Positions 21,442 through 46,414 of a DNA stretch of 63,351 bases are shown here, in pieces (the first letter of the stretch is position 1; every line of letters begins with the position of its first letter). The stretch comes from a virus. The position numbers and the translations under genes were made by a program. The notes beneath the pieces are model-generated. The model saw nothing but the letters and a program-made list of their open reading frames with translations. It was not told the origin of the DNA and ran no database searches. The stretch lies in IMG/VR virus record IMGVR_UViG_3300045988_110668. One strand, written 5' to 3'.

Positions 21442-22206
21442 TTACACAAATAGCGATTGCTGGATACGTGATAACACAAATTTATTCGCATCAGCAAAGA
21501 ACTTTTTTTTAATCTCAAATCCGTATGCCCTGCGTCCCAACTGGGCAGCAGCTAATAAGGTAGAACCGCTTCCGGCACATGGATCAATAACGACATCACC
21601 TTTGTCGGTGAATATCTCTATCAGTCTACGAAGCAAAGGAACCGGCTTTTGCGTGCTATGAACCTTCGGAGTTTCATTGTCCAACACCCAATCAAAGCAA
21701 TTGAAGATCATCCGACCATCGTTGTTAAACTTTGGAAGTTTATCGCGGTAAAGCAACAATCCATATTCACAATTGCCGACTATCTTCATATTGGCTTTCA
21801 AGACTTGCGCTGAAAAGTTCTTTCTGAATACAAGATTGATGTAATTATTCAGCCCATATCTTTTACCCAGTTCAATATACCGGAACTGGTCTTCAAACTC
21901 GCAAAATATTATCATGCAAGGCGCCTTGCCTTTTTCCTTGGGTTCCTTTACAAGCATCTGGGAGCAGAAGTGCATAAACTCGGCAGGGCGAAAATCTTTA
22001 TCGGTATCAAAGAATTGTTTGCCGGCTAATTCGCTTTCCCCGTTCTTGTTATCTCCGTCCACATACCATGAAGGGTTAGAAGCATAAGCACTATTGCCTA
22101 AATTGTAAGGGACATCAGCTATAATTAACTGGGCTTTTGGGATTCCATAAGAACGGAAATTTTGGAAATGGTCATTGAATAACTTAGGTTTTATATTTTT
22201 ATCCAT
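21442..22206 (-). CDS. DNA methyltransferase (N6/N4 beta-class)
   Basis: IIADVPYNLG (DPPY-like motif IV) comes first, then C-terminal TQKPVPLLRRLIEIFTDKGDVVIDPCAGSGST (motif I). Confidence 0.8.
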   Translation of the reverse strand: MDKNIKPKLFNDHFQNFRSYGIPKAQLIIADVPYNLGNSAYASNPSWYVDGDNKNGESELAGKQFFDTDKDFRPAEFMHFCSQMLVKEPKEKGKAPCMIIFCEFEDQFRYIELGKRYGLNNYINLVFRKNFSAQVLKANMKIVGNCEYGLLLYRDKLPKFNNDGRMIFNCFDWVLDNETPKVHSTQKPVPLLRRLIEIFTDKGDVVIDPCAGSGSTLLAAAQLGRRAYGFEIKKKFFADANKFVLSRIQQSLFV

Positions 22207-22762: not shown

Positions 22763-23755
22763 TTATTTCTTTATTACAACTGCCATAGTACTAACAGCCG
22801 TTCCGCTTTCCTTGAACTCACCGGCTCCGATTTCAAAAACTTCTCCATGAACTTTTTCCAACCATTCCCGGAACTCAACACATTTCTTTTCAGACGCGAA
22901 TTTCCAATGCCGGCTGGTTATAACCGCAAGAATTCCACCTTCTTCCAAGCGTTCATACATAAGTCTTACATGGTCAATATCCTGATTACCGGAAAATGGA
23001 GGATTAGCAATAATCTTAGTGTAATGCCCTACACTATCTTTCGTAAAATCTTCATCAAGCAATATTACGTTATCAAGTGTATGAAGGAACTCCCTGTTTT
23101 CCGGCATCAGTTCATAGCATTCAACTGTTACTGACGGGCACGACCGATGAATCGCTTTTATCAGAGCACCACGTCCGGCACTTGGTTCAAGTACGGTATC
23201 TTTTTCGTGAATTCCACCGGCAAGCATTACCAACCAGTCTGCAATATCAGCAGGTGTTTCAAAGAACTGAAAATCTTTTTGCAAATCGCATCGCTTACCT
23301 TCTTTCAAGATGGAGAACACACGTTCCGGATTAAAAGGAAATGTGAATCCCTGTATCTTACCTCCCTGCCATGAGCCGCCAGCTTCTTCTATCCATTTTT
23401 TAGCTTCAGCATAGGATTTCTTATTGAATTGTACTTTCGGAAGTTTAAGAACACTATCCTCAAGAGTACAATGCTTCAGTATCTCTTCCACATTCCATTT
23501 CTTACCTTCATCAGCCTGGCTCTTCCTTTCATCAACCGGAGCGCCCGGCGCTAACAGTGAGGATATTTTCGTAATAACCATATTACTCGCATCCATAAAA
23601 GTATTAACACAGAAAAGCGCTTCCATAAGAAATTCAGTATCAACATATCCGGCAGCGTCATAAACATCTATGCCTTCAGTCATATCCGACAATTCATTGA
23701 GCTGGGTTACACTACCACGTAACGTTTTTATTAAAGTCTCTTTGTTGTTCATCAT
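22763..23755 (-). CDS. N6-adenine DNA methyltransferase (gamma-class order)
   Basis: VLEPSAGRGALI (motif I) then IIANPPFSG (motif IV), with a ~170-aa N-terminal extension. Confidence 0.75.
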   Translation of the reverse strand: MMNNKETLIKTLRGSVTQLNELSDMTEGIDVYDAAGYVDTEFLMEALFCVNTFMDASNMVITKISSLLAPGAPVDERKSQADEGKKWNVEEILKHCTLEDSVLKLPKVQFNKKSYAEAKKWIEEAGGSWQGGKIQGFTFPFNPERVFSILKEGKRCDLQKDFQFFETPADIADWLVMLAGGIHEKDTVLEPSAGRGALIKAIHRSCPSVTVECYELMPENREFLHTLDNVILLDEDFTKDSVGHYTKIIANPPFSGNQDIDHVRLMYERLEEGGILAVITSRHWKFASEKKCVEFREWLEKVHGEVFEIGAGEFKESGTAVSTMAVVIKK

Positions 23756-24818
23756 AACTTTTTTGTAAATAAATTCTTGTTGTATCTACACTACCATGAC
23801 CAAGAAGGTCTGCTAATTGAATTACATCTTTGGTTTTCTTCAGGAACATTTTAGCAAAGAAGTGCCGGAAGGCGTGAGCGTGCATTTTTTTCGAATCGAT
23901 ACCACAATGTTTACCCCATGCTTTTAGGTGTTGGGAAAAACCTCTCTGAGTCAACGGTCCGAATCTCCCAACAGCAAGAGTACCGGACTTGCCTGTCTCC
24001 TTTATATAGTCCTTCACTTCCCTCTGCAATTGCTTCTGGAAAAAGAAACGCCGATACTTGTTCCCTTTCCCTTTCAAAACAACTTCGCCGATCGCTATAT
24101 CCTCCCACGTGAATTGCTGAAACTCCGAGAGACGAGCTCCTGTAGTACCCAATACCTTAATAAAGAAATAGTAATCCTTGTTGTTTTTTGTTTTCAGATA
24201 CTCTAGTAACCGATTGTATTCATCTTCGGTAGGAACATTAGAAATATCTAGCCTACGTTTCATTTTAGGTCTCTTCAATTCTATCGGCTTTTTCATCCAT
24301 TTAGAGAACTTTTCCAAGGCAGTAATCCTTAAACGGATGGTTTGCGGAGACAATGTTTTTTCTTCTAATGTACGTATAAACCTCTTACAGTTTTCCATAT
24401 TTATATTGTTAGCGTATGCAAAATATTGCTTCAAGGATGTGTGATAAATATCCACTGTATGCGAAGAGTAATCATTGTTATCGGTTAGCCATATTATAAA
24501 ATCATTTAACAACTTTCTGTTCTTTTCCGAAATGGTGTCAAGTCTTTCTAAAGCTTTTACTTTCTTTTCTTGACGGTTATATCCGATTTTAAGGTGAAAC
24601 AATAAATCACAAATAGCTTCACTCATCAATGGATAACGTGCCCCAATATTGGCATTTTCACGCTTATAAGCCAGATAGCCACGACGATTGATTTCTTCGG
24701 CACTTTCAAGAAAATCAGTTACATATTTGATATATTTCCCAATAGTATCATAAGTTCTTCTTGTTGTATACAAGTAGCTAATATAATCAGTTAAGATTTT
24801 CTGCCTTTCATTATTCAT
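23712..24818 (-). CDS. Tyrosine recombinase (Xer/integrase family), second copy in this genome
   Basis: C-terminal HAHAFRHFFAKMFL...LLGHGSVDTTRIYL catalytic signature. Confidence 0.8.
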   Translation of the reverse strand: MNNERQKILTDYISYLYTTRRTYDTIGKYIKYVTDFLESAEEINRRGYLAYKRENANIGARYPLMSEAICDLLFHLKIGYNRQEKKVKALERLDTISEKNRKLLNDFIIWLTDNNDYSSHTVDIYHTSLKQYFAYANNINMENCKRFIRTLEEKTLSPQTIRLRITALEKFSKWMKKPIELKRPKMKRRLDISNVPTEDEYNRLLEYLKTKNNKDYYFFIKVLGTTGARLSEFQQFTWEDIAIGEVVLKGKGNKYRRFFFQKQLQREVKDYIKETGKSGTLAVGRFGPLTQRGFSQHLKAWGKHCGIDSKKMHAHAFRHFFAKMFLKKTKDVIQLADLLGHGSVDTTRIYLQKSYDEQQRDFNKNVTW

Positions 24819-25126: not shown

Positions 25127-26032
25127 CTATTCACAAAGTCCATGATAAAGACTCATACAGCTATACCCACCTTCTGGCTCAAACATATCATCCATACCGA
25201 CATCGTTACGGTTCACATACTCGAAAACTTCCTGTACTGTTGGATAAGTCCTATTTTTACAGAAACGATCAGGGATGTAACCGGGTGAGAAGAAAGACGA
25301 GCCTTTTGGAGTTTCTTCTTTCATCCTTTGCTCTGCATCTATCAAGCGGTTACGCCCGAACTCTTCTTGTGAAATGAGTTTGACTTCCTGCTTTCGGCAC
25401 ATAATACAAGGATAGCAACCAACACGGGAAAATCCACGAAAATACAAAGGATTTGGCTTTTGTCCGGCAGATAAGATATGATTTATTACTTCTTGTGCCG
25501 ACCACTGAAAAATCGGACGGGAAACGCTTGCATCATAGTGTTCACACCATTTAAGTACATCTTTTCTACGATAATCCTGCTTCCATACTTCAACAATCTT
25601 TCCTTTGCGATTCTTTTTAATGCGTTCGTAATACTCCCCAAAGTAATTGCATTCATAGGGAAGTTTAGCACGCTCTTCACTTTCCTTTGCCCGGATGCCT
25701 TGTATAATCACGCAAGGTTCAGTAAGTGAGAGAATGTAATCAATCATCGGTTTAATTTTCAATTCCGAAGTACAAAACCTTCTTTGGGAAGACGGGAACC
25801 GGGAGCGCTTGATAGACATATCTACAAAATCAGTATATTTCTTGCTTCTCAAAACTACTAATTTAACATCAAGCTGTTTGCACAGATCACTAATATGTTG
25901 ATAGGTTTCGGGATGCTCCCAACCAGTATCACAGAAAACAGCTTCTATTTTATCAGCTCCGTATTTATTGGTAGCCTGGATTAAACAGGCTTGCGAATCC
26001 TTACCACCGGAAAAACTTACTATTATTTTCAT
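25127..26032 (-). CDS. PAPS-reductase / PP-loop ATPase family protein
   Basis: N-terminal IIVSFSGGKDSQA PP-loop. Confidence 0.75.
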   Translation of the reverse strand: MKIIVSFSGGKDSQACLIQATNKYGADKIEAVFCDTGWEHPETYQHISDLCKQLDVKLVVLRSKKYTDFVDMSIKRSRFPSSQRRFCTSELKIKPMIDYILSLTEPCVIIQGIRAKESEERAKLPYECNYFGEYYERIKKNRKGKIVEVWKQDYRRKDVLKWCEHYDASVSRPIFQWSAQEVINHILSAGQKPNPLYFRGFSRVGCYPCIMCRKQEVKLISQEEFGRNRLIDAEQRMKEETPKGSSFFSPGYIPDRFCKNRTYPTVQEVFEYVNRNDVGMDDMFEPEGGYSCMSLYHGLCE

Positions 26033-26468: not shown

Positions 26469-27440
26469 TCAATTATCTAATTCTTCTATCGCTTTGAAAA
26501 TTTCAATAATCACATGCGGAACTATGGCGTTTCCATATCCTTTAATTGATTCCTGTCTCCATTTTGTGAAAGGAATGGTAAGGTTGTCCACATCAAAGGG
26601 AAGCCCATCATTTCCTCGACAAACAGGGGATTGAGTTGGGAAGTTTTCCCAGTTTGATCGGATATGTAATGATTCAGTTGGGATTTTCTGCTTGTACCGT
26701 CCTTTCTCTCCTTGCAGCATCCGTTGTGATGGCAACTCGCAGTAGGAGTAGGTAACAACCCCATCTTTGCTGCTAAAGCAATTGTTGGACGTTCCTTTGC
26801 ATTGGGTGAGCGGCTCTTGTTTATTCTTCCCGTTCCGGCATCTATCGAGGTCGGAGTGGGGAGCATCATTCCTGTGAGCAACAAACCACACTCTGTCTCT
26901 TCTGTGGGGCGCTCCGACGGCACAAGCCGGAATAAGCAACGGTTGGACGGAATATCCTTCTCGTTCAAGGTCTTTACAGATGGTTTCGACGACATACTCT
27001 TGTCGTAACAATACTCTTTTTCGGTTATCTTCTCCGAAAAGAGCGGTTTGGCTTCCCATTTCAGTCTCCTCACCGGACTGAACCATTGTGAGGATTCCAG
27101 CAACGTTTTCACCAATAACCCAAGTGGGTCGGATTTCGCGTATTGCTCGTAACATTTCTGGCCAGAGGTAACGGTTATCATCCGCTCCCTTTCTCTGACC
27201 TGCAAGGGAGAAAGGCTGGCAAGGAAATCCGCCTGTGAGGACATCGATTCTTCCTTTCCATTGACTAAAGTCTGTCTTTGTAATATCTTCATAATGTTCT
27301 GAATCAGGAAACCAATATTTTAGTATCTCGTTGCAAAAAGAGTTTATCTCACAGTGAAAGGCATTTTTCCAGCCCATCCATGACGCTGCAACGCTAGGGG
27401 CATCAAAGCCGCTAAATAAAGAACCGTGAGTTTTATTCAT
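26469..27440 (-). CDS. dcm: DNA (cytosine-5) methyltransferase
   Basis: Motifs in order: SLFSGFD (I-like), GGFPCQPFS (IV), ENV (VI), APHRRDRVW (VIII), GNAIVP (X). Confidence 0.85.
   Translation of the reverse strand: MNKTHGSLFSGFDAPSVAASWMGWKNAFHCEINSFCNEILKYWFPDSEHYEDITKTDFSQWKGRIDVLTGGFPCQPFSLAGQRKGADDNRYLWPEMLRAIREIRPTWVIGENVAGILTMVQSGEETEMGSQTALFGEDNRKRVLLRQEYVVETICKDLEREGYSVQPLLIPACAVGAPHRRDRVWFVAHRNDAPHSDLDRCRNGKNKQEPLTQCKGTSNNCFSSKDGVVTYSYCELPSQRMLQGEKGRYKQKIPTESLHIRSNWENFPTQSPVCRGNDGLPFDVDNLTIPFTKWRQESIKGYGNAIVPHVIIEIFKAIEELDN
26522..27292 (-). other. 256-codon ORF in the +1 frame, fully nested in dcm (candidate overprinted gene or frameshift isoform)
   Basis: Track ORF. It is 2.4 times longer than any other same-strand nested ORF in the window. 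Its product carries LPTPT x2 and LNPLFVEEMMGFPLMWT. Confidence 0.4.
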
Positions 27441-31004: not shown

Positions 31005-31193
31005 TGGGACAAGCAGGAGTCGAACCTGCACAAGTATCGTCTGCTTTCTCGTTTTCGTCCGTAGATTGGTTATCCTACGATTTTTAAACTACTCAACCAG
31101 TTACTAACAGCACCGGTCTTGATGACATCCATTCTTATGTACACTTAGAATTTCCGTTCATTTAGTCTTAGCGCCCTATGACCATTTTGTCCC
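31005..31193 (-). ncRNA. tRNA-like RNA (acceptor stem plus canonical T-arm, ~157-nt non-tRNA interior)
   Basis: 5' GGGACAA pairs perfectly with 3' TTGTCCC. T-arm is GCAGG-TTCGACT-CCTGC. A -7-like box TAGCTTTG lies at 31248-31241. Confidence 0.5.
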
Positions 31194-31245
31194 ATGTTCG
31201 CCCGCCAATCTTCACAGACAGGCTGGGGTAAAAAGGTTAACAAAG

Positions 31246-31440
31246 CTATCTTAACAGCTCACTCTTGCGGATTATAGCTCTACCAGTGACGATAGTATTC
31301 TCCGTATTGTGAGATAATGTACTTTGCTTAATTCCTATCTGATCCTCGGACAAATGGCGAAATATGCCCGTTACCGAACTGAAATAATAGTTCCGCTTTT
31401 CGAAGATCAGGTAGACATGGATTACTTTAGTTCTACGCAT
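31246..31440 (-). CDS. Hypothetical protein (64 aa)
   Basis: Track ORF. Confidence 0.4.
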   Translation of the reverse strand: MRRTKVIHVYLIFEKRNYYFSSVTGIFRHLSEDQIGIKQSTLSHNTENTIVTGRAIIRKSELLR

Positions 31441-34391: not shown

Positions 34392-34619
34392 AACTATATA
34401 TATTATTAAAGTGGTTAATCGAAAATAAAGCGTCTATTTTCACAAACCGACGCTTTCGAAAATTTTAATATACAAAAAAGATTGTTCCTAGATACCGAAC
34501 CAACGGACACTAGGATAGTATAGAACATGTAAAACTCAAATACAGGGACTCGCACCCTACGACATCCTGGGGTGTCGGCATTGGGTTAATTAATAAATGA
34601 ATGGAATATAATTTTATAG

Positions 34620-34959: not shown

Positions 34960-35193
34960 TTAGTAGTTTCTTACTACATCAATATATCCAGCTTTCCGGT
35001 TTGTTAGCACTGAATATAGTGATTGGTCTTTTTCAGTTATTCTATCTATTTTAGCCAATCTATTTAAGTCAGATACACATCTACGAAGTTGTATAACTAA
35101 TGTATCACTAAAATTGTAACGAATTGAGTCTTCTTTTTTTCTCAATTTCTTTTTTATTTCTGCTCTTTCTTTAATTTCTTTTCTTCCTGCCAT
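34960..35193 (-). CDS. Hypothetical basic protein (77 aa)
   Basis: Track ORF. Confidence 0.5.
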   Translation of the reverse strand: MAGRKEIKERAEIKKKLRKKEDSIRYNFSDTLVIQLRRCVSDLNRLAKIDRITEKDQSLYSVLTNRKAGYIDVVRNY

Positions 35194-35221
35194 AACTATT
35201 AAAATTTAAATTATTGACTTG

Positions 35222-35293
35222 TGGACGTAACTGGATTCGAACCAGTAATAAACCAACTGGGCAGGTAATCTCATGCACTGCCACTTTACGCCC
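35222..35293 (-). ncRNA. tRNA-like RNA, 72 nt (acceptor plus T-arm, no cloverleaf)
   Basis: 5' GGGCGTA pairs with 3' TACGTCC (one G-U). T-arm is ACTGG-TTCGAAT-CCAGT. Internal hairpin GGCAG-N13-CTGCC. Confidence 0.5.
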
Positions 35294-35382
35294 GTTTGCC
35301 TGTATCACGTCAGATACAGGACTTAATCGAAACACGAATTTTCACACATAAAACAGCTATTCTCCCGAACCGCATACCTATA

Positions 35383-35544
35383 TCACTTTTCTCTCTTTAG
35401 TCTCTTTTGGTGCTTTTCCATGTATATGGAACATAATGCAAATACAGCAAACGAAAGCCAAAATACAATATTCATTTCGTTTGCAAGCAATACTGTTAAT
35501 GCAAACGATATTGCCCAAATTCCTAATAGTGGAGTACGTTTCAT
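35383..35544 (-). CDS. Small two-helix membrane peptide (53 aa)
   Basis: My translation: MKRTPLLGIWAISFALTVLLANEMNIVFWLSFAVFALCSIYMEKHQKRLKREK. Confidence 0.4.
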   Translation of the reverse strand: MKRTPLLGIWAISFALTVLLANEMNIVFWLSFAVFALCSIYMEKHQKRLKREK

Positions 35545-35569: not shown

Positions 35570-35651
35570 TGGACGGAACCGGAGTCGAACCGGTCTCACG
35601 GAATATTGGTGCACCTCACCGCAGTTTCAGCCATGATATACACATCCGCCC
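35570..35651 (-). ncRNA. tRNA-like RNA, 82 nt (acceptor plus T-arm, no cloverleaf)
   Basis: 5' GGGCGGA pairs with 3' TCCGTCC (one G-U). T-arm is ACCGG-TTCGACT-CCGGT. Contains an internal palindrome GGTGCACC. Confidence 0.5.
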
Positions 35652-36078
35652 GATTAATTAAAAAAGTGCACTATCTTCACAGACCGTACACTATACAACA
35701 CACAAACACAAAATAAAACACTACATAAAAGTGCCCTACCCGATTCTCACTACCGGATGTCAGTTTCAAACTGTCAGTAGGGCTATATTACAATCAGCGT
35801 ACGGACGCCTATTCCCGTTTTCTTACTGATAAAGACGATGTTTTTCAGACTGATTTTTTCGATATATTACTTACTCACGTTGCTTCCTTCCGCTCATATC
35901 ATCGCTGGTTGGCTATTACGCTATACTCCGCCTCGGCTATAATGCTTATTAGCGCAGGCTACTTTAACGTGCCCTGAACACGGCTTCATTTTTGAGGGTT
36001 AAGCCTCCCATCCCGAATTAGGATTCATCGGTTTACCGTTATGCTCTGAAAGCGTTTCGCTCGCTTCTTCCGTAGGTT
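35652..36078 (-). ncRNA. ORF-free, relatively GC-rich segment with many local helices (candidate structured ncRNA; the alternative is an origin region)
   Basis: No ORF of 60 aa or more in any frame from 35194 to 36078. Helices include GCCCTAC/GTAGGGC (35733-39 / 35777-83) enclosing CAGTT/AACTG. Confidence 0.3.
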
Positions 36079-37344: not shown

Positions 37345-37365
37345 ATACTATAATAATTTATAGTA
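37345..37365. promoter_or_regulatory. Palindromic operator ATACTATAA-TAA-TTTATAGTA in the divergent region
   Basis: Same half-site as the 36611-36666 array. It lies next to the box TATCTTTG (reverse complement of 37340-37347). Confidence 0.55.
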
Positions 37366-37387: not shown

Positions 37388-37804
37388 ATGGAAAGAGATG
37401 AACGTTTTTTAGAAGTGATTAATGAACTTCAAATTACAGCTTATACGCTTGAAAAAGAAAATGGTATAAAAAATGCGCAAGCCAAAGTGTCTCATTACAA
37501 AAAAGGAGTAACCAAAAGTATATCTTCAGATATAATAGTTGGGCTTTGTGAGGCATATCCGCAAGTTAACGCTAATTACATTCTCACCGGCAACGGCCCC
37601 ATGTTCAAGGAAGAACAAGCCACTCAAAACATTAACGAACATTCACAAGTAATACAAATAGACAACACAAAACAGGTAAGACACATGCTGGATGTTATAA
37701 ATGAACAACAAAAAACGATAGAAAACCTAACAGAATATATCAAAAAGATAGAAGGAAACCCGAAAAGAAGTATAGAAAACAAGAAGGATGGTATGACCGC
37801 ATAA
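37388..37804 (+). CDS. CI-like repressor (HTH)
   Basis: ..FLEVINELQITAYTLEKENGIKNAQAKVSHYKKG.. is an XRE-type HTH. It is the only long + strand gene in the lysogeny region and is divergent from the early genes. Confidence 0.6.
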   Translation: MERDERFLEVINELQITAYTLEKENGIKNAQAKVSHYKKGVTKSISSDIIVGLCEAYPQVNANYILTGNGPMFKEEQATQNINEHSQVIQIDNTKQVRHMLDVINEQQKTIENLTEYIKKIEGNPKRSIENKKDGMTA

Positions 37805-38646: not shown

Positions 38647-39981
38647 TTAATACACGTTATTATTAAACACATAATCAATAACTTTGGAATTAGCCTCATT
38701 TATAGAACTAAAATCCTTCTTGATATAAATTTCAGTTACCCTCATGGATTCGTCAACATGATTTAAGGCGGAATGGACTACATACTTGTCTATTTTAAGA
38801 TCATTAGCCGCAATAGTAGCCCATGAATGGCGGGCAGCATAAAATTCCAAATCTTCTATGATGTCACCGTTCTTTTTTGACTTATTTATATCGTTAATGC
38901 TCTTCTCAATCTCCTTAAGGCCCTTATTGATAGCTTTATTAAAGTTCTTATAATCGGCATACATTTGATAGAATCTGAACACTCTTTTCCCTGTATGATC
39001 TTTGTATTTCTCCAGCAGATCGGAAATAAACGGGGGTACATCTACATGAATTTCCGCGTTATCTCTACGTCTAGTTCTTGTTTTCTCTCTGAAATACTGA
39101 ATCGTATTATTGCTTATCTTATCACAGCTATATAAGTCAGCAGAATTCATTCCTATCAGACAGAAAGACAAGATAAATACATCTTTTGCAAGATTATATC
39201 TGCAATTTTGCTCTACATTTTTCCTGGCGTTATGCCGCATTATGTAGGGTAAATCATAAATTGCTTTTATTGTTTGCGGTGATAATGCCCTTTTTCTTGT
39301 AGTCTCTTCTTTGGGAACCTTAAACTTCATGAATGGAGACCAAGGTATTAGTATTACTCCTTTCTCTTCATCGTTATATTTTAATTTAGCCTCCTTATGC
39401 AAATGCCGAATACATGCGGTATAGTTAGATAACATTCTATTGGTTGTGATACGCTTCCCTTTTTTTATAGCTTCTAAATTGGATTTCTCCTTTTTTTCTA
39501 TCAGAAACTTCGAATAATTAACCAGCATTGAATAGGTTATTTCAGAAATAGATATAATATCTCTTTTCATAAAGTTGATTAATGACTGAAGCATGCCTTT
39601 GTAATTAGAAGCAGTTCCATTTTTACCTTGTTTTTCAAGATTGTTTATATAGTCCTTTGCAAAAGATACAAAATCAATATCTTTCTTTTTGTCTTCTTCC
39701 TTTTGGTTCAAATAATCGACCAATTCATCTATTGACATATTATCTATAGTAAGAGCGATCTTGCTACATTTATTACGATAATAATTGATAATCTCATTGC
39801 ACTGATCTATCTTTTCCTGATTTTTTATCTTGAAATTCTTGACCGTCAAATCTTCTTGGTTTACATATATAGAGGTTGGCAACCTTCGAACAACCCTGTT
39901 ATGAGTTATCCGAATTTTTACATTCCAGGTCTTATCTTTTCTTTTTTGGTGCTTTTGCACTTCTGCTTTAAATGTAGCCAT
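38647..39981 (-). CDS. int: Tyrosine integrase (Bacteroidetes phage/CTn type)
   Basis: Start at MATFKAEVQKHQKRKDKTWNVKIRITHNR. C-terminal ARHSWATIAAN...HSALNH...TEIYI. Confidence 0.85.
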   Translation of the reverse strand: MATFKAEVQKHQKRKDKTWNVKIRITHNRVVRRLPTSIYVNQEDLTVKNFKIKNQEKIDQCNEIINYYRNKCSKIALTIDNMSIDELVDYLNQKEEDKKKDIDFVSFAKDYINNLEKQGKNGTASNYKGMLQSLINFMKRDIISISEITYSMLVNYSKFLIEKKEKSNLEAIKKGKRITTNRMLSNYTACIRHLHKEAKLKYNDEEKGVILIPWSPFMKFKVPKEETTRKRALSPQTIKAIYDLPYIMRHNARKNVEQNCRYNLAKDVFILSFCLIGMNSADLYSCDKISNNTIQYFREKTRTRRRDNAEIHVDVPPFISDLLEKYKDHTGKRVFRFYQMYADYKNFNKAINKGLKEIEKSINDINKSKKNGDIIEDLEFYAARHSWATIAANDLKIDKYVVHSALNHVDESMRVTEIYIKKDFSSINEANSKVIDYVFNNNVY

Positions 39982-40015
39982 AATTTCATATGTATTTTTT
40001 ATGCTTTTCTTTTTC

Positions 40016-40033
40016 GAGCAACAATAGAGCAAC
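40016..40033 (+). repeat. 18-bp direct repeat GAGCAACAATAGAGCAAC (putative integrase arm site, copy 1)
   Basis: Identical to 40282-40299. Confidence 0.85.
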
Positions 40034-40170
40034 AATTTCAAGCAAAAGTAGCGTTTTAAATCAAAAGTAACAAAATAAAAGGGCTATAAATCATTTTAGA
40101 CTTATAACCCTATTTATTTATAATCATCTGAAAATCAACACAAACAACTAATAATCAGACCTTATTTTTG

Positions 40171-40220
40171 TGGAGCGGTAAGCGAGACTCGAACTCGTGA
40201 CCCTTAGCTTGGGAAGCTAA
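40171..40220 (-). other. 3' half of a tRNA-Gly(CCC)-like gene: putative attP core
   Basis: Minus strand: TTAGC-TTCCCAA-GCTAA (anticodon arm, CCC), GGGTC, T-arm ACGAG-TTCGAGT-CTCGC, TTACCGC-T-CCA. There is no 5' half upstream. Confidence 0.65.
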
Positions 40221-46209: not shown

Positions 46210-46414
46210 TTCTTTTTACTCTACCCCCAAAAGAGCTACATTTGTTATGATAACCGGCCTTCTACTTACCGGATAAACTTAGTGCTTAGTATTAATTAAT
46301 GTATCATTTTAGCCTCCTTTCTTTTAAAACATTTTTCCATTGGAAATTGTTATGTAAGTAAAACTTAAACTTTTCATACCGGAAACGGTCTGTGAAGATA
46401 GTAGTTCCGGTAAT

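What the first reader, a model, noticed from the sequence alone, without database searches (positions are those of the whole stretch)
35222..35293. 72-nt tRNA-like element preceded by a perfect 8-bp hairpin
On the minus strand, GGGCGTA (35293-35287) pairs with TACGTCC (one G-U). The T-arm is ACTGG-TTCGAAT-CCAGT, with discriminator A at 35222.

The 40-nt interior folds best as GGCAG-N13-CTGCC, not as D and anticodon arms. Position 8 is A.

Immediately upstream is the hairpin CCTGTATC-N6-GATACAGG (35298-35319). ORF 34960..35193 starts about 28 nt downstream.

This element and 35570-35651 share the same acceptor ends (GGGCGnA...TnCGTCCA), which suggests they are paralogs.
Basis: seen in the sequence. 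Interest (0 to 1): 0.65.

Follow-up and report, generated by a model that had tools for sequence, protein, structure and literature searches.

The report
Anticodon-less tRNA mimic in phage operon
A gut Bacteroides phage carries a conserved 72-base RNA element in its early operon that keeps the top half of a tRNA but has no anticodon, one of a family of swappable tRNA look-alikes not found in Rfam, in annotated phage records or in the papers searched.

Summary
Window 35293..35222 (minus strand) folds into a 7-bp acceptor stem (G3:U70, A73), a canonical T-arm (UUCGAAU) and an irregular interior hairpin. It has no D-arm and no anticodon arm. ARAGORN and Rfam do not call it.

It is conserved in 38 contigs (12 distinct sequences) with compensatory changes in the T-stem and the interior hairpin. 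It is better conserved than the protein gene downstream. It is not the phage att site: that is a tRNA-Gly fragment at 40171-40196, next to the integrase.

Related Bacteroides phages carry at least 16 types of such elements. Those whose interior was read have 2-4-nt loops, large inserts or lost arms in place of the anticodon loop. They sit as exchangeable cassettes at the same intergenic slots. Each follows a stable hairpin and is followed by a C.

Best reading: host tRNA-processing enzymes (RNase P, 3' trimming, CCA addition) cut it out of the early polycistronic RNA. This separates the flanking small-gene mRNAs and releases a non-decoding tRNA mimic that alanyl-tRNA synthetase could probably charge. 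Whether the cut or the released RNA is the selected function is open. It is a new variant of a known kind.

The parts
35222..35293 (-). tRNA-like element B, 72 nt. Acceptor 5' strand 35287-35293 and 3' strand 35223-35229, with G3:U70. Discriminator A73 at 35222.
   Evidence: Sequence. Family alignment and pair counts (99.2% of cells paired, 4 pairs with changes on both sides, 0/500 shuffles as good). Present in 38 loci.
35258..35283 (-). Interior irregular hairpin (element positions 11-36): 9 pairs, two bulges, 6-nt loop. It takes the place of the D and anticodon arms.
   Evidence: RNAalifold. Compensatory changes at 13:34 and 20:27. The loop sequence is not conserved (UGAGAU, UGAGCU or UAAAAU).
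35247..35257 (-). 11-nt linker GUUGGUUUAUU with an invariant GG (35253-35254). CAGUUGGUU is identical to the D-loop of a tRNA-Val on contig L058. Candidate partner of the T-loop (tRNA elbow); this role is inferred.
   Evidence: G40 and G41 are invariant in 12 distinct sequences while positions 36, 38 and 42 vary. tRNA-Val sequence.
35230..35246 (-). T-arm ACUGG-UUCGAAU-CCAGU with G53-C61.
   Evidence: Loop invariant. Stem pairs 49:63 and 50:62 change on both sides (CG to UA), and 48:64 varies between AU and GU.
35299..35320 (-). Leader hairpin CCUGUAUC-N6-GAUACAGG. CAAAC (35294-35298) follows it, directly before G1.
   Evidence: Present in 37 of 38 loci. The loop is 5-6 nt and the spacer 4-5 nt. 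A paralogous copy, CCUGCAUC/GGUGCAGG, shows a compensatory change.
35321..35382 (-). Very highly conserved spacer between the p53 stop codon and the leader hairpin. It contains a GNRA-hairpin motif copy, GC-G-GUUC-GGGA-GAAU-A-GC, at 35356-35373.
   Evidence: 93-100% identical in 11 of 12 relatives (77% in L065), including relatives whose p77 coding sequence is only 65-80% identical. Fold.
35194..35221 (-). 28-nt A/U-rich leader, beginning with C74, between the element and the ATG of the 77-aa ORF.
   Evidence: The leader is 24-28 nt in relatives. A C follows the discriminator in essentially all element types.
34960..35193 (-). Downstream 77-aa ORF (p77), hypothetical protein.
   Evidence: All homologues are hypothetical. 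Some gene callers extend the ORF through the element, but the reading frame is not conserved between relatives.
35383..35544 (-). Upstream 53-aa hydrophobic peptide ORF (p53).
35570..35651 (-). Paralogous tRNA-like element A, 82 nt: GGGCGGA...UCCGUCCA, with G3:U70 and A73.
   Evidence: This slot holds at least 6 different tRNA-like cassettes in relatives.
35666..35691 (-). GNRA hairpin GUGUAC-G-GUCU-GUGA-AGAU-A-GUGCAC. A U6 run (35660-35665) follows; the hairpin ends 14 nt before element A.
35733..35783 (-). DUF2693-FD RNA motif (Rfam RF02926), the only Rfam hit in the window.
   Evidence: 56.5 bits against a gathering score of 44.5.
31005..31193 (-). Third tRNA-like element, 189 nt: GGGACAA...UUGUCCCA. 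The downstream ATG starts 1 nt after it (one C in between). A GNRA hairpin at 31201-31227 precedes it.
   Evidence: Relatives carry 98-nt or 159-nt cassettes here between identical flanks.
40171..40196 (-). 3' fragment of tRNA-Gly(CCC): the phage attachment core, 130 nt from the integrase gene (38647-40041).
   Evidence: Integrated prophages lie beside a host tRNA-Gly(CCC) gene.

Best explanation
Element B is a genuine, conserved, non-decoding tRNA mimic that is transcribed as part of the phage early (lytic) polycistronic RNA.

What it keeps and what it lacks:
- It keeps the parts of a tRNA that the tRNA-maturation machinery reads: the 7-bp acceptor stem, A73, the canonical T-arm, and a GG that could dock on the T-loop.
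- It has no anticodon, so it cannot decode.

Proposed mechanism:
1. Host RNase P cuts 5' of G1 (35293).
2. The 3' end is cut or trimmed at A73/C74, and CCA is completed.
3. This separates the upstream p53 mRNA from the downstream p77 mRNA. The new 3' end of the p53 mRNA is capped by the 8-bp hairpin. The p77 mRNA is left with a short A/U-rich leader.
4. A 72-nt tRNA top-half mimic is released. With G3:U70 and A73 it should be a substrate for alanyl-tRNA synthetase.

Shown here: the structure, its conservation, its position in the operon, the absence of an anticodon, and that it is not an att site.

Inferred: transcription, cleavage by RNase P and a 3' nuclease, charging with alanine, and which of the two outcomes (mRNA punctuation or a trans-acting mimic) is the selected one. 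I lean slightly towards both mattering.
For: Structure and conservation
- The structure is kept by compensatory changes.
- The element is 83-98% conserved where the downstream coding sequence is 65-80% identical.
- The loop of the interior hairpin varies freely, while the acceptor, T-arm, GG, A73 and C74 are fixed.

Transcription context
- The element is co-oriented with and lies between small ORFs.
- No Bacteroides-type promoter box (TAnnTTTG) occurs on this strand between 36618 and 31248.

Leader hairpins
- All 16 tRNA-like types examined in relatives follow a stable hairpin that ends 0-14 nt upstream.

Position relative to ORFs
- In phages of the window type the elements end 1-28 nt before ORF starts.
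- The third slot abuts the ATG (CCCA-C-AUG), so that ORF would need the cut to expose its start.

For a released product
- In the B. xylanisolvens XB1A prophage, four such elements form an ORF-free array that ends in a strong terminator.
- G3:U70 with A73 recurs in 8 of about 19 types, while acceptor pairs 5-7 covary.

Established knowledge (from memory, not tested here)
- RNase P and tRNase Z need only the acceptor/T-arm half.
- G3:U70 suffices for AlaRS.
- tRNA-like processing signals are known: plant mitochondrial t-elements, MALAT1 mascRNA and E. coli secG-leuU.
Against: - There is no expression or end-mapping data. Transcription and cleavage are wholly inferred.
- The promoter scan is a consensus match only.
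- G3:U70 becomes G3:C70 in 4 of 38 loci (3 of 12 distinct sequences), and the related GGGUGGU-type cassette has A3:U70 in phage BS-TP2. Alanine charging therefore cannot be essential everywhere.
- A C at position 74 may disfavour tRNase Z (recalled from B. subtilis work), so the 3' cut is uncertain.
- Family diversity is low (95% mean identity), which limits the power of the covariation test.
- ORF-free arrays argue against pure punctuation. The close abutment to ORFs argues against a purely trans-acting role.
Confidence: 0.55

Rival explanations
1. The selected function lies only in the released RNA. The phage makes anticodon-less tRNA top-half mimics as decoys or sponges for a host factor that reads the acceptor stem, T-arm and CCA end. 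Candidates are acceptor-end-directed immune nucleases or transferases, AlaRS, EF-Tu or the CCA-adding enzyme. Segmentation of the mRNA would be incidental.
For: - ORF-free tandem arrays that end in a terminator.
- 3-4 different types per phage, with rapid cassette replacement at fixed slots.
- The G3:U70/A73 alanine identity is retained across 8 types.
- Many types keep a full D-arm and elbow, which is more than a processing signal needs.
- A Bacteroidetes Cas12a3 immune nuclease recognises exactly the acceptor stem, T-arm and CCA tail (PMC12851939).
Against: - No target is identified.
- Pfam scans of 40 of the window's ORFs found no tRNA-targeting or tRNA-using enzyme.
- G3:U70 is not invariant.
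- This reading does not explain the universal upstream hairpins, or why the third slot abuts the start codon.
Confidence: 0.3
2. It is an unprocessed cis-acting structure in the p53-p77 intergenic RNA. It would act as a 5' stabiliser or a translational or transcriptional regulator of p77, and its resemblance to a tRNA would be incidental to that role.
For: - It sits a fixed short distance (24-28 nt) from the p77 start.
- It is embedded in a very highly conserved noncoding module with two further hairpins.
- A conserved C74 could disfavour 3' cleavage.
Against: - An exact canonical T-loop with G53-C61, a 7-bp acceptor and A73 are hard to explain without tRNA-binding factors.
- The same slots accept unrelated tRNA-like cassettes, some of which pass the Rfam tRNA threshold.
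- No alternative pairing with the leader or any other target was found.
Confidence: 0.1
3. It is a decaying tRNA pseudogene, or a tRNA-derived att or recombination scar, with no function of its own.
For: - The last 25 nt are identical to the 3' end of a tRNA-Val(GAC) gene on another viral contig (L058), and 6 of the 7 bases of the 5' acceptor strand match it.
- Temperate phages often carry tRNA fragments at att sites.
Against: - Both acceptor strands are present and they covary.
- It has been conserved in 38 contigs better than the adjacent genes.
- It lies about 4 kb inside integrated prophages.
- The real att core is a tRNA-Gly(CCC) 3' fragment at 40171-40196, beside the integrase.
- Three such elements occur in one operon, against 0.5 expected by chance.
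Confidence: 0.03
4. It is a miniature tmRNA-like molecule. Charged with alanine, it would enter stalled ribosomes with SmpB and interfere with, or substitute for, trans-translation.
For: - The best Rfam similarity is to the two ends of the tmRNA model (13.8 bits, E 0.02 over 7 kb).
- It shares G3:U70, A73 and the T-arm, and it lacks a D-stem, as in the tmRNA tRNA-like domain.
Against: - The score is far below the tmRNA gathering score of 47.
- It has no mRNA-like domain, tag ORF or pseudoknots.
- The long single-stranded linker is 3' of the internal helix. As I recall tmRNA, the linker there is 5' of the helix.
- G3:U70 is lost in 4 of 38 loci.
- Sister cassettes mimic other tRNAs (Leu-like D-arms, U73 types).
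Confidence: 0.02

Closest known systems
tRNA-like processing signals in mRNAs: plant mitochondrial t-elements, animal mitochondrial tRNA punctuation, MALAT1/mascRNA, E. coli secG-leuU (from my own knowledge)
   Same: - An acceptor-plus-T-arm mimic embedded in a longer transcript at gene boundaries, with a degenerate interior.
- The upstream RNA ends in a protective structure (here the 8-bp hairpin; in MALAT1 a triple helix).
- One slot would give a leaderless mRNA, as in animal mitochondria.
   Different: - This is a dsDNA temperate phage of Bacteroides.
- There are many exchangeable cassette types.
- An alanine identity pair is frequent.
- Some relatives have ORF-free arrays.
- Cleavage has not been demonstrated.
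tRNA-like domain of tmRNA (Rfam RF00023)
   Same: G1-C72, G2-C71, G3:U70, A73, a canonical T-arm and no D-stem. It is the best, though weak, Rfam match.
   Different: - It is 72 nt long, with no coding or pseudoknot domain.
- The linker topology is reversed relative to tmRNA as I recall it.
- It scores 13.8 bits against a gathering score of 47.
Phage or viral non-decoding tRNA-like RNAs: T4 stable RNAs C and D in the tRNA cluster, the RNase P-processed P1/P7 C4 RNA, and the MHV68 vtRNA-miRNA units (from my own knowledge)
   Same: Virus-encoded, tRNA-shaped or RNase P-processed small RNAs that do not decode. They are made from longer transcripts, near immunity or early genes.
   Different: - There is no sequence relationship.
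- No antisense target was found in the window.
- The cassette architecture with leader hairpins and C74 is specific to this group.
DUF2693-FD RNA motif (Rfam RF02926)
   Same: Same phage lineage and same operon. It lies 440 nt upstream and is conserved next to the A slot in relatives.
   Different: It is a separate 49-nt three-stem motif. Element B gives no match to it.
Canonical tRNA (Rfam RF00005, ARAGORN)
   Same: The acceptor stem, discriminator and T-arm are canonical. Sister cassettes (71-nt, 98-nt and 146-nt types) pass the Rfam tRNA threshold.
   Different: - No D-arm and no anticodon arm.
- A8 instead of U8.
- Not called by ARAGORN or Rfam.

Membership tests
Canonical tRNA (RF00005 / ARAGORN) | 7-bp acceptor stem with an unpaired discriminator | tested here: met
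   GGGCGUA/UACGUCC plus A73. 100% of cells paired in 12 distinct sequences.
Canonical tRNA (RF00005 / ARAGORN) | T-arm: 5-bp stem with G53-C61 and a 7-nt UUCRANY loop | tested here: met
   ACUGG-UUCGAAU-CCAGU. The loop is invariant and the stem covaries.
Canonical tRNA (RF00005 / ARAGORN) | D-arm, and an anticodon arm with a 7-nt loop | tested here: not met
   The 40-nt interior forms one irregular hairpin with a 6-nt loop of variable sequence.
Canonical tRNA (RF00005 / ARAGORN) | Detected by the tRNA finder, or reaches the Rfam gathering score | tested here: not met
   ARAGORN finds 0 genes in the window. There is no RF00005 hit even at E <= 10.
tmRNA (RF00023) | Alanine identity in the acceptor (G3:U70, A73) plus a T-arm | tested here: met
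   Present in the window and in 34 of 38 loci. The other 4 have G3:C70.
tmRNA (RF00023) | mRNA-like domain with a tag reading frame and pseudoknots; reaches the Rfam gathering score | tested here: not met
   The element is 72 nt in total. It scores 13.8 bits against 47. ARAGORN calls no tmRNA.
tmRNA (RF00023) | Binds SmpB and is alanylated | not testable with these tools
   Needs biochemistry.
att-site tRNA fragment of a temperate phage | Only a 3' tRNA fragment, next to the integrase, at the prophage border | tested here: not met
   Both acceptor strands are present. It lies about 4 kb inside prophages L244, L246 and L247. The real core, a tRNA-Gly 3' fragment, is at 40171-40196.
tRNA-like mRNA processing signal (t-element / mascRNA type) | Acceptor/T-arm mimic located at the boundary of mRNA segments inside a longer transcript | tested here: met
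   It is intergenic and co-oriented. No promoter box lies between 36618 and 31248. The next ATG is 28 nt away, and a hairpin ends 5 nt upstream.
tRNA-like mRNA processing signal (t-element / mascRNA type) | Cleaved by RNase P at the 5' end and by a tRNA 3' nuclease | not testable with these tools
   No transcriptome or enzymology is available.
DUF2693-FD RNA (RF02926) | Match to the 49-nt covariance model | tested here: not met
   The only hit is at 35733-35783. Nothing matches at 35222-35293.
Bacterial Y RNA-like (YrlA) | The 5' and 3' ends form a Ro-binding stem, with an internal tRNA-like domain; encoded next to rsr | tested here: not met
   Here the termini form the acceptor stem itself, and no longer enclosing helix exists. 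No Ro-type (TROVE) domain turned up in the 40 ORFs scanned against Pfam, but the window was not scanned exhaustively.

The most novel reading that the evidence does not exclude
Temperate Bacteroides phages carry a previously undescribed class of exchangeable, anticodon-less tRNA mimics. Many keep the alanine identity set. Each comes with a leader hairpin. They would be matured by the host tRNA machinery and act in trans as charged top-half decoys against host factors or immune effectors that read tRNA acceptor ends (for example Cas12a3-like nucleases). Cassette turnover would then reflect an arms race.
Probability: 0.25. Interest if true: 0.85.

Novelty: new variant of a known kind. Interest (0 to 1): 0.66.

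Why it matters
If these elements are processed as proposed, abundant human-gut Bacteroides prophages organise their early operons with tRNA mimics, in the way mitochondria punctuate their transcripts. At the same time they would produce a set of non-decoding, probably chargeable, tRNA look-alikes.

This would add a bacterial-virus example to tRNA mimicry. It would explain intergenic regions that gene callers currently leave empty or mis-annotate: some callers produce 115-123-aa versions of the p77 ORF that read through the element.

It also gives a concrete, testable link to the tRNA-end-directed defences recently found in Bacteroidetes. The accompanying GNRA-hairpin motif and the neighbouring DUF2693-FD motif suggest that this stretch of the early operon is unusually rich in structured RNA.

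Tried and rejected
- **att-site remnant.** Rejected. The real att core is a tRNA-Gly(CCC) fragment at 40171-40196, and the element lies inside prophages.
- **Coding sequence.** Rejected. The overlapping ORFs (35171-35335 minus strand, 35214-35351 plus strand) are not conserved. The hairpin loop (5-6 nt), the spacer (4-5 nt) and the leader (24-28 nt) carry indels that are not multiples of three. Extended 115-123-aa gene calls exist in relatives, but in a frame the window does not share.
- **Canonical or intron-containing tRNA.** Rejected.
- **tmRNA.** Rejected.
- **Antisense regulator.** No complementarity longer than 12 nt to anything else in the window. Host targets could not be tested.
- **Own promoter or terminator.** The sigma-70 scan was uninformative (25 hits found, 25 expected). 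The Bacteroides -7 box scan found none near the element.
- **Genome-collection scan with a pattern specific to element B.** It found nothing. The pattern for element A found 7 Bacteroides genomes.
- **GenBank phage records.** None contains the element. The isolated relative BS-TP2 has other tRNA-like types, none annotated as RNA.
- **Literature searches.** No description of these elements was found. The supplement that describes DUF2693-FD is not held in the library.
- **Function of p77.** No Pfam or PHROG match, and all homologues are hypothetical.

Full report
**1. The observation**

On the minus strand, 35293..35222 reads GGGCGUAAAGUGGCAGUGCAUGAGAUUACCUGCCCAGUUGGUUUAUUACUGGUUCGAAUCCAGUUACGUCCA. 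It has these features:
- A 7-bp acceptor stem whose single G-U pair is at position 3:70, with discriminator A73 at 35222.
- A canonical T-arm, ACUGG-UUCGAAU-CCAGU.
- A at position 8.
- A 40-nt interior with no D-arm and no anticodon arm.

The 8-bp hairpin CCUGUAUC-UGACGU-GAUACAGG is real, but it lies at 35299-35320, one base from the stated coordinates. CAAAC follows it. The ATG of ORF 34960..35193 is 28 nt downstream.

ARAGORN finds no tRNA or tmRNA in the whole window. The only Rfam family above threshold is DUF2693-FD at 35733-35783. At permissive thresholds the element weakly matches the two ends of the tmRNA model (13.8 bits against a gathering score of 47).

A strict scan for a T-arm followed by a 7-bp acceptor finds three strong hits: 35222-35293, 35570-35651 and 31005-31193. 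All are on the minus strand of the early region. Shuffled windows give 0.52 hits on average.

**2. Genomic setting**

The window is a temperate siphovirus-type phage of Bacteroides, with these genes:
- Portal, capsid, terminase and tail genes.
- An integrase at 38647-40041, and a repressor-like regulator on the plus strand at 37388-37804.
- A minus-strand early operon with small ORFs, a YqaJ exonuclease, VRR-NUC and an antirepressor.

Relatives lie as prophages in B. xylanisolvens, B. congonensis, B. bouchesdurhonensis and B. acidifaciens. The isolated phage BS-TP2 of B. salyersiae is a distant relative.

Bacteroides-type promoter boxes (TAnnTTTG) occur on the minus strand at 37347, 36618, 31248 and 30413, with none between 36618 and 31248. 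This is a consensus match only. If it is right, the element is probably transcribed together with its flanking ORFs.

**3. Conservation and structure**

Pattern scans of viral and metagenome contigs found the element in 38 loci, as 12 distinct sequences.

On that alignment the structure is an acceptor stem, an irregular hairpin at positions 11-36, and a T-arm. Pair counts for this structure:
- 99.2% of cells are paired.
- Four pairs change on both sides: 13:34 and 20:27 in the interior hairpin, 49:63 and 50:62 in the T-stem.
- No shuffle out of 500 does as well.
- Slid registers drop to 28-46% paired.

Diversity is low (95% mean identity), so this is moderate rather than overwhelming support.

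The loop of the interior hairpin is not conserved (UGAGAU, UGAGCU or UAAAAU). The GG in the 11-nt linker is invariant. CAGUUGGUU in that linker matches the D-loop of a tRNA-Val whose 3' 25 nt are identical to those of the element. This suggests descent from a tRNA, with the elbow contact retained; that is inference.

The element is 83-98% identical in relatives whose downstream p77 coding sequence is only 65-80% identical. The noncoding spacer upstream is 93-100% identical in 11 of 12 relatives.

Indels of one base in the hairpin loop, the spacer and the leader rule out a coding role.

**4. It is not an att site**

Integrated relatives lie directly beside a host tRNA-Gly(CCC) gene next to the integrase, about 4 kb from the element. 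The window carries the matching tRNA-Gly 3' fragment at 40171-40196.

**5. The wider family**

Related phages carry many tRNA-like elements that do not decode:
- A 71-nt type and a 67-nt type have normal D-arms but a 4-nt loop where the anticodon loop should be.
- 98-, 106- and 146-nt types have tRNA-Leu-like D-arms and long inserts.
- There are also a 133-nt type and others.
- Some pass the Rfam tRNA threshold. ARAGORN labels many of them 'tRNA-???' with 2- or 4-nt anticodons.

They behave as cassettes at fixed slots:
- The slot of 35570-35651 holds at least six unrelated types between conserved flanks.
- The slot of 31005-31193 holds 98-, 159- or 189-nt versions.
- The slot of the present element holds a D-arm-containing 70-nt type in L245.

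Features shared across types:
- Every one of 16 types examined follows a stable hairpin that ends 0-14 nt upstream.
- A C follows the discriminator in essentially all of them, usually as CAA, CUA or CAU.
- Eight of about 19 types keep G1-C72, G2-C71, G3:U70 and A73, while pairs 5-7 covary.
- G3:U70 is still not invariant. It is G:C in 4 of 38 loci of this family, and the related GGGUGGU-type cassette has A:U in BS-TP2.

A model built from the present family finds 35570-35651 at 22 bits (E about 1e-3). In L185 and L051 that slot uses the same CCUG(U/C)AUC hairpin plus CAAAC leader. Both results support paralogy.

**6. Mechanism**

The conserved parts are exactly those read by RNase P, tRNA 3' nucleases, the CCA-adding enzyme, AlaRS and EF-Tu; that is established knowledge, not tested here. 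Everything needed for decoding is absent.

I therefore propose that the host tRNA machinery excises the element from the early polycistronic RNA.

Two consequences follow, and the data support each in part.

mRNA punctuation:
- The leader hairpins are where a 3'-end protector of the upstream fragment should be.
- The elements end 1-28 nt before ORF starts.
- The third slot abuts its ATG (CCCA-C-AUG), so cleavage would create a near-leaderless mRNA and expose the start.

A released, stable tRNA mimic:
- The B. xylanisolvens prophage has four elements in an ORF-free array closed by a strong terminator.
- The alanine identity set recurs.
- Many types keep a full L-shape.
- Cassettes turn over quickly.

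A Bacteroidetes Cas12a3 nuclease that reads the acceptor stem, T-arm and CCA tail (PMC12851939) shows that defences aimed at this half of the tRNA exist. No link to these phages has been shown.

**7. Comparison with known families**

The element is not a member of tRNA, tmRNA, DUF2693-FD or YrlA; defining features were tested and not met.

It works most like the tRNA-like processing signals known from plant mitochondria (t-elements), animal mitochondria, MALAT1/mascRNA and bacterial tRNA-mRNA co-transcripts. It also resembles phage non-decoding stable RNAs such as T4 RNAs C and D and P1 C4. These comparisons come from my own knowledge.

I found no Rfam family, no annotated phage record and no paper that describes it.

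**8. Verdict**

- The element is real, and it is a new variant of a known kind: tRNA mimicry or tRNA-like processing signals.
- Confidence that it is a conserved structured RNA: about 0.9.
- Confidence that it is processed by the tRNA machinery as described: about 0.55.
- Whether punctuation, a trans-acting mimic or both is the selected function remains open.

Noticed in passing
window 35666-35691(-), 31201-31227(-), about 34425-34455(-), about 46377-46412(+), 35356-35373(-): A repeated hairpin motif. It has a conserved inner part, G-GUYY-GNGA-RRAU-A (GNRA tetraloop, closing G-U), and covarying outer stems. The strict pattern has four copies against 0.25 expected, and a fifth variant lies in the highly conserved spacer. 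Copies precede tRNA-like modules in the window, in L002 and in BS-TP2. It has no Rfam match. It could be a boxB/nut-like protein-binding site or a terminator.
   Followed up: partly
window 35570-35651(-) slot; L014:705-850, L051:2867-2936, L185, L191, L138: The slot between the GNRA hairpin with its U-tract and the p53 leader holds at least six unrelated anticodon-less tRNA-like cassettes in different phages, between near-identical flanks.
   Followed up: partly
window 31005-31193(-); L191:7370-7467, L185:2475-2633: The third tRNA-like element ends one base before the ATG of a 49-aa ORF (CCCA-C-AUG). Relatives have 98-nt or 159-nt versions here. Processing would give a near-leaderless mRNA. 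A Bacteroides -7 box, TAGCTTTG, starts at 31248.
   Followed up: partly
window 40171-40196(-): A 3' fragment of tRNA-Gly(CCC), with 2 mismatches to the host gene, 130 nt from the integrase start. It is the probable attP core. Prophages L244, L246 and L247 sit beside the host tRNA-Gly(CCC) gene.
   Followed up: yes
L201:3600-4900(-) (B. xylanisolvens XB1A, NC_021017) and L199, L198, L203: An ORF-free region of about 1.2 kb holds 3-4 tandem tRNA-like elements (types seen across these loci: 71, 98, 67 and 83 nt in L201, plus 106 and 159 nt in L203). It follows an 85-aa membrane peptide ORF and ends in a strong intrinsic terminator. One variant (L203:6827-6985) has an 88-nt insert in place of the 4-nt 'anticodon' loop.
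   Followed up: partly
window 35733-35783(-); L204:2462-2510; L014:576-626: The DUF2693-FD Rfam motif lies just upstream of the tRNA-like modules in most of this phage lineage. In BS-TP2 the first early gene is annotated, by structural alignment, as a DUF2693 (SH3-barrel) protein. No DUF2693 domain was detected among the 40 window ORFs scanned.
   Followed up: partly
window 34392-34619(-): A 228-nt intergenic gap holds a T-arm-like hairpin, AGGG-UGCGAGU-CCCU (34542-34560), and a GNRA-hairpin copy. A similar sequence (…GUAGGGUUAAAGCCCCUGUUAUUUGAGUUUUAA…) lies inside the B. xylanisolvens array. It may be a degenerate tRNA-like module.
   Followed up: no
window 23712-24818(-), 25127-26032(-), 26469-27440(-), 21442-22206(-): A second tyrosine recombinase, a PAPS-reductase/QueC-like protein and two DNA methylases lie downstream of the early operon. 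This is probably a DNA-modification module.
   Followed up: no
P0004-P0016, P0018: Public gene calls of 115-123 aa for p77 homologues read through the tRNA-like element. These are probably mis-annotations caused by the absence of stop codons in one frame.
   Followed up: partly
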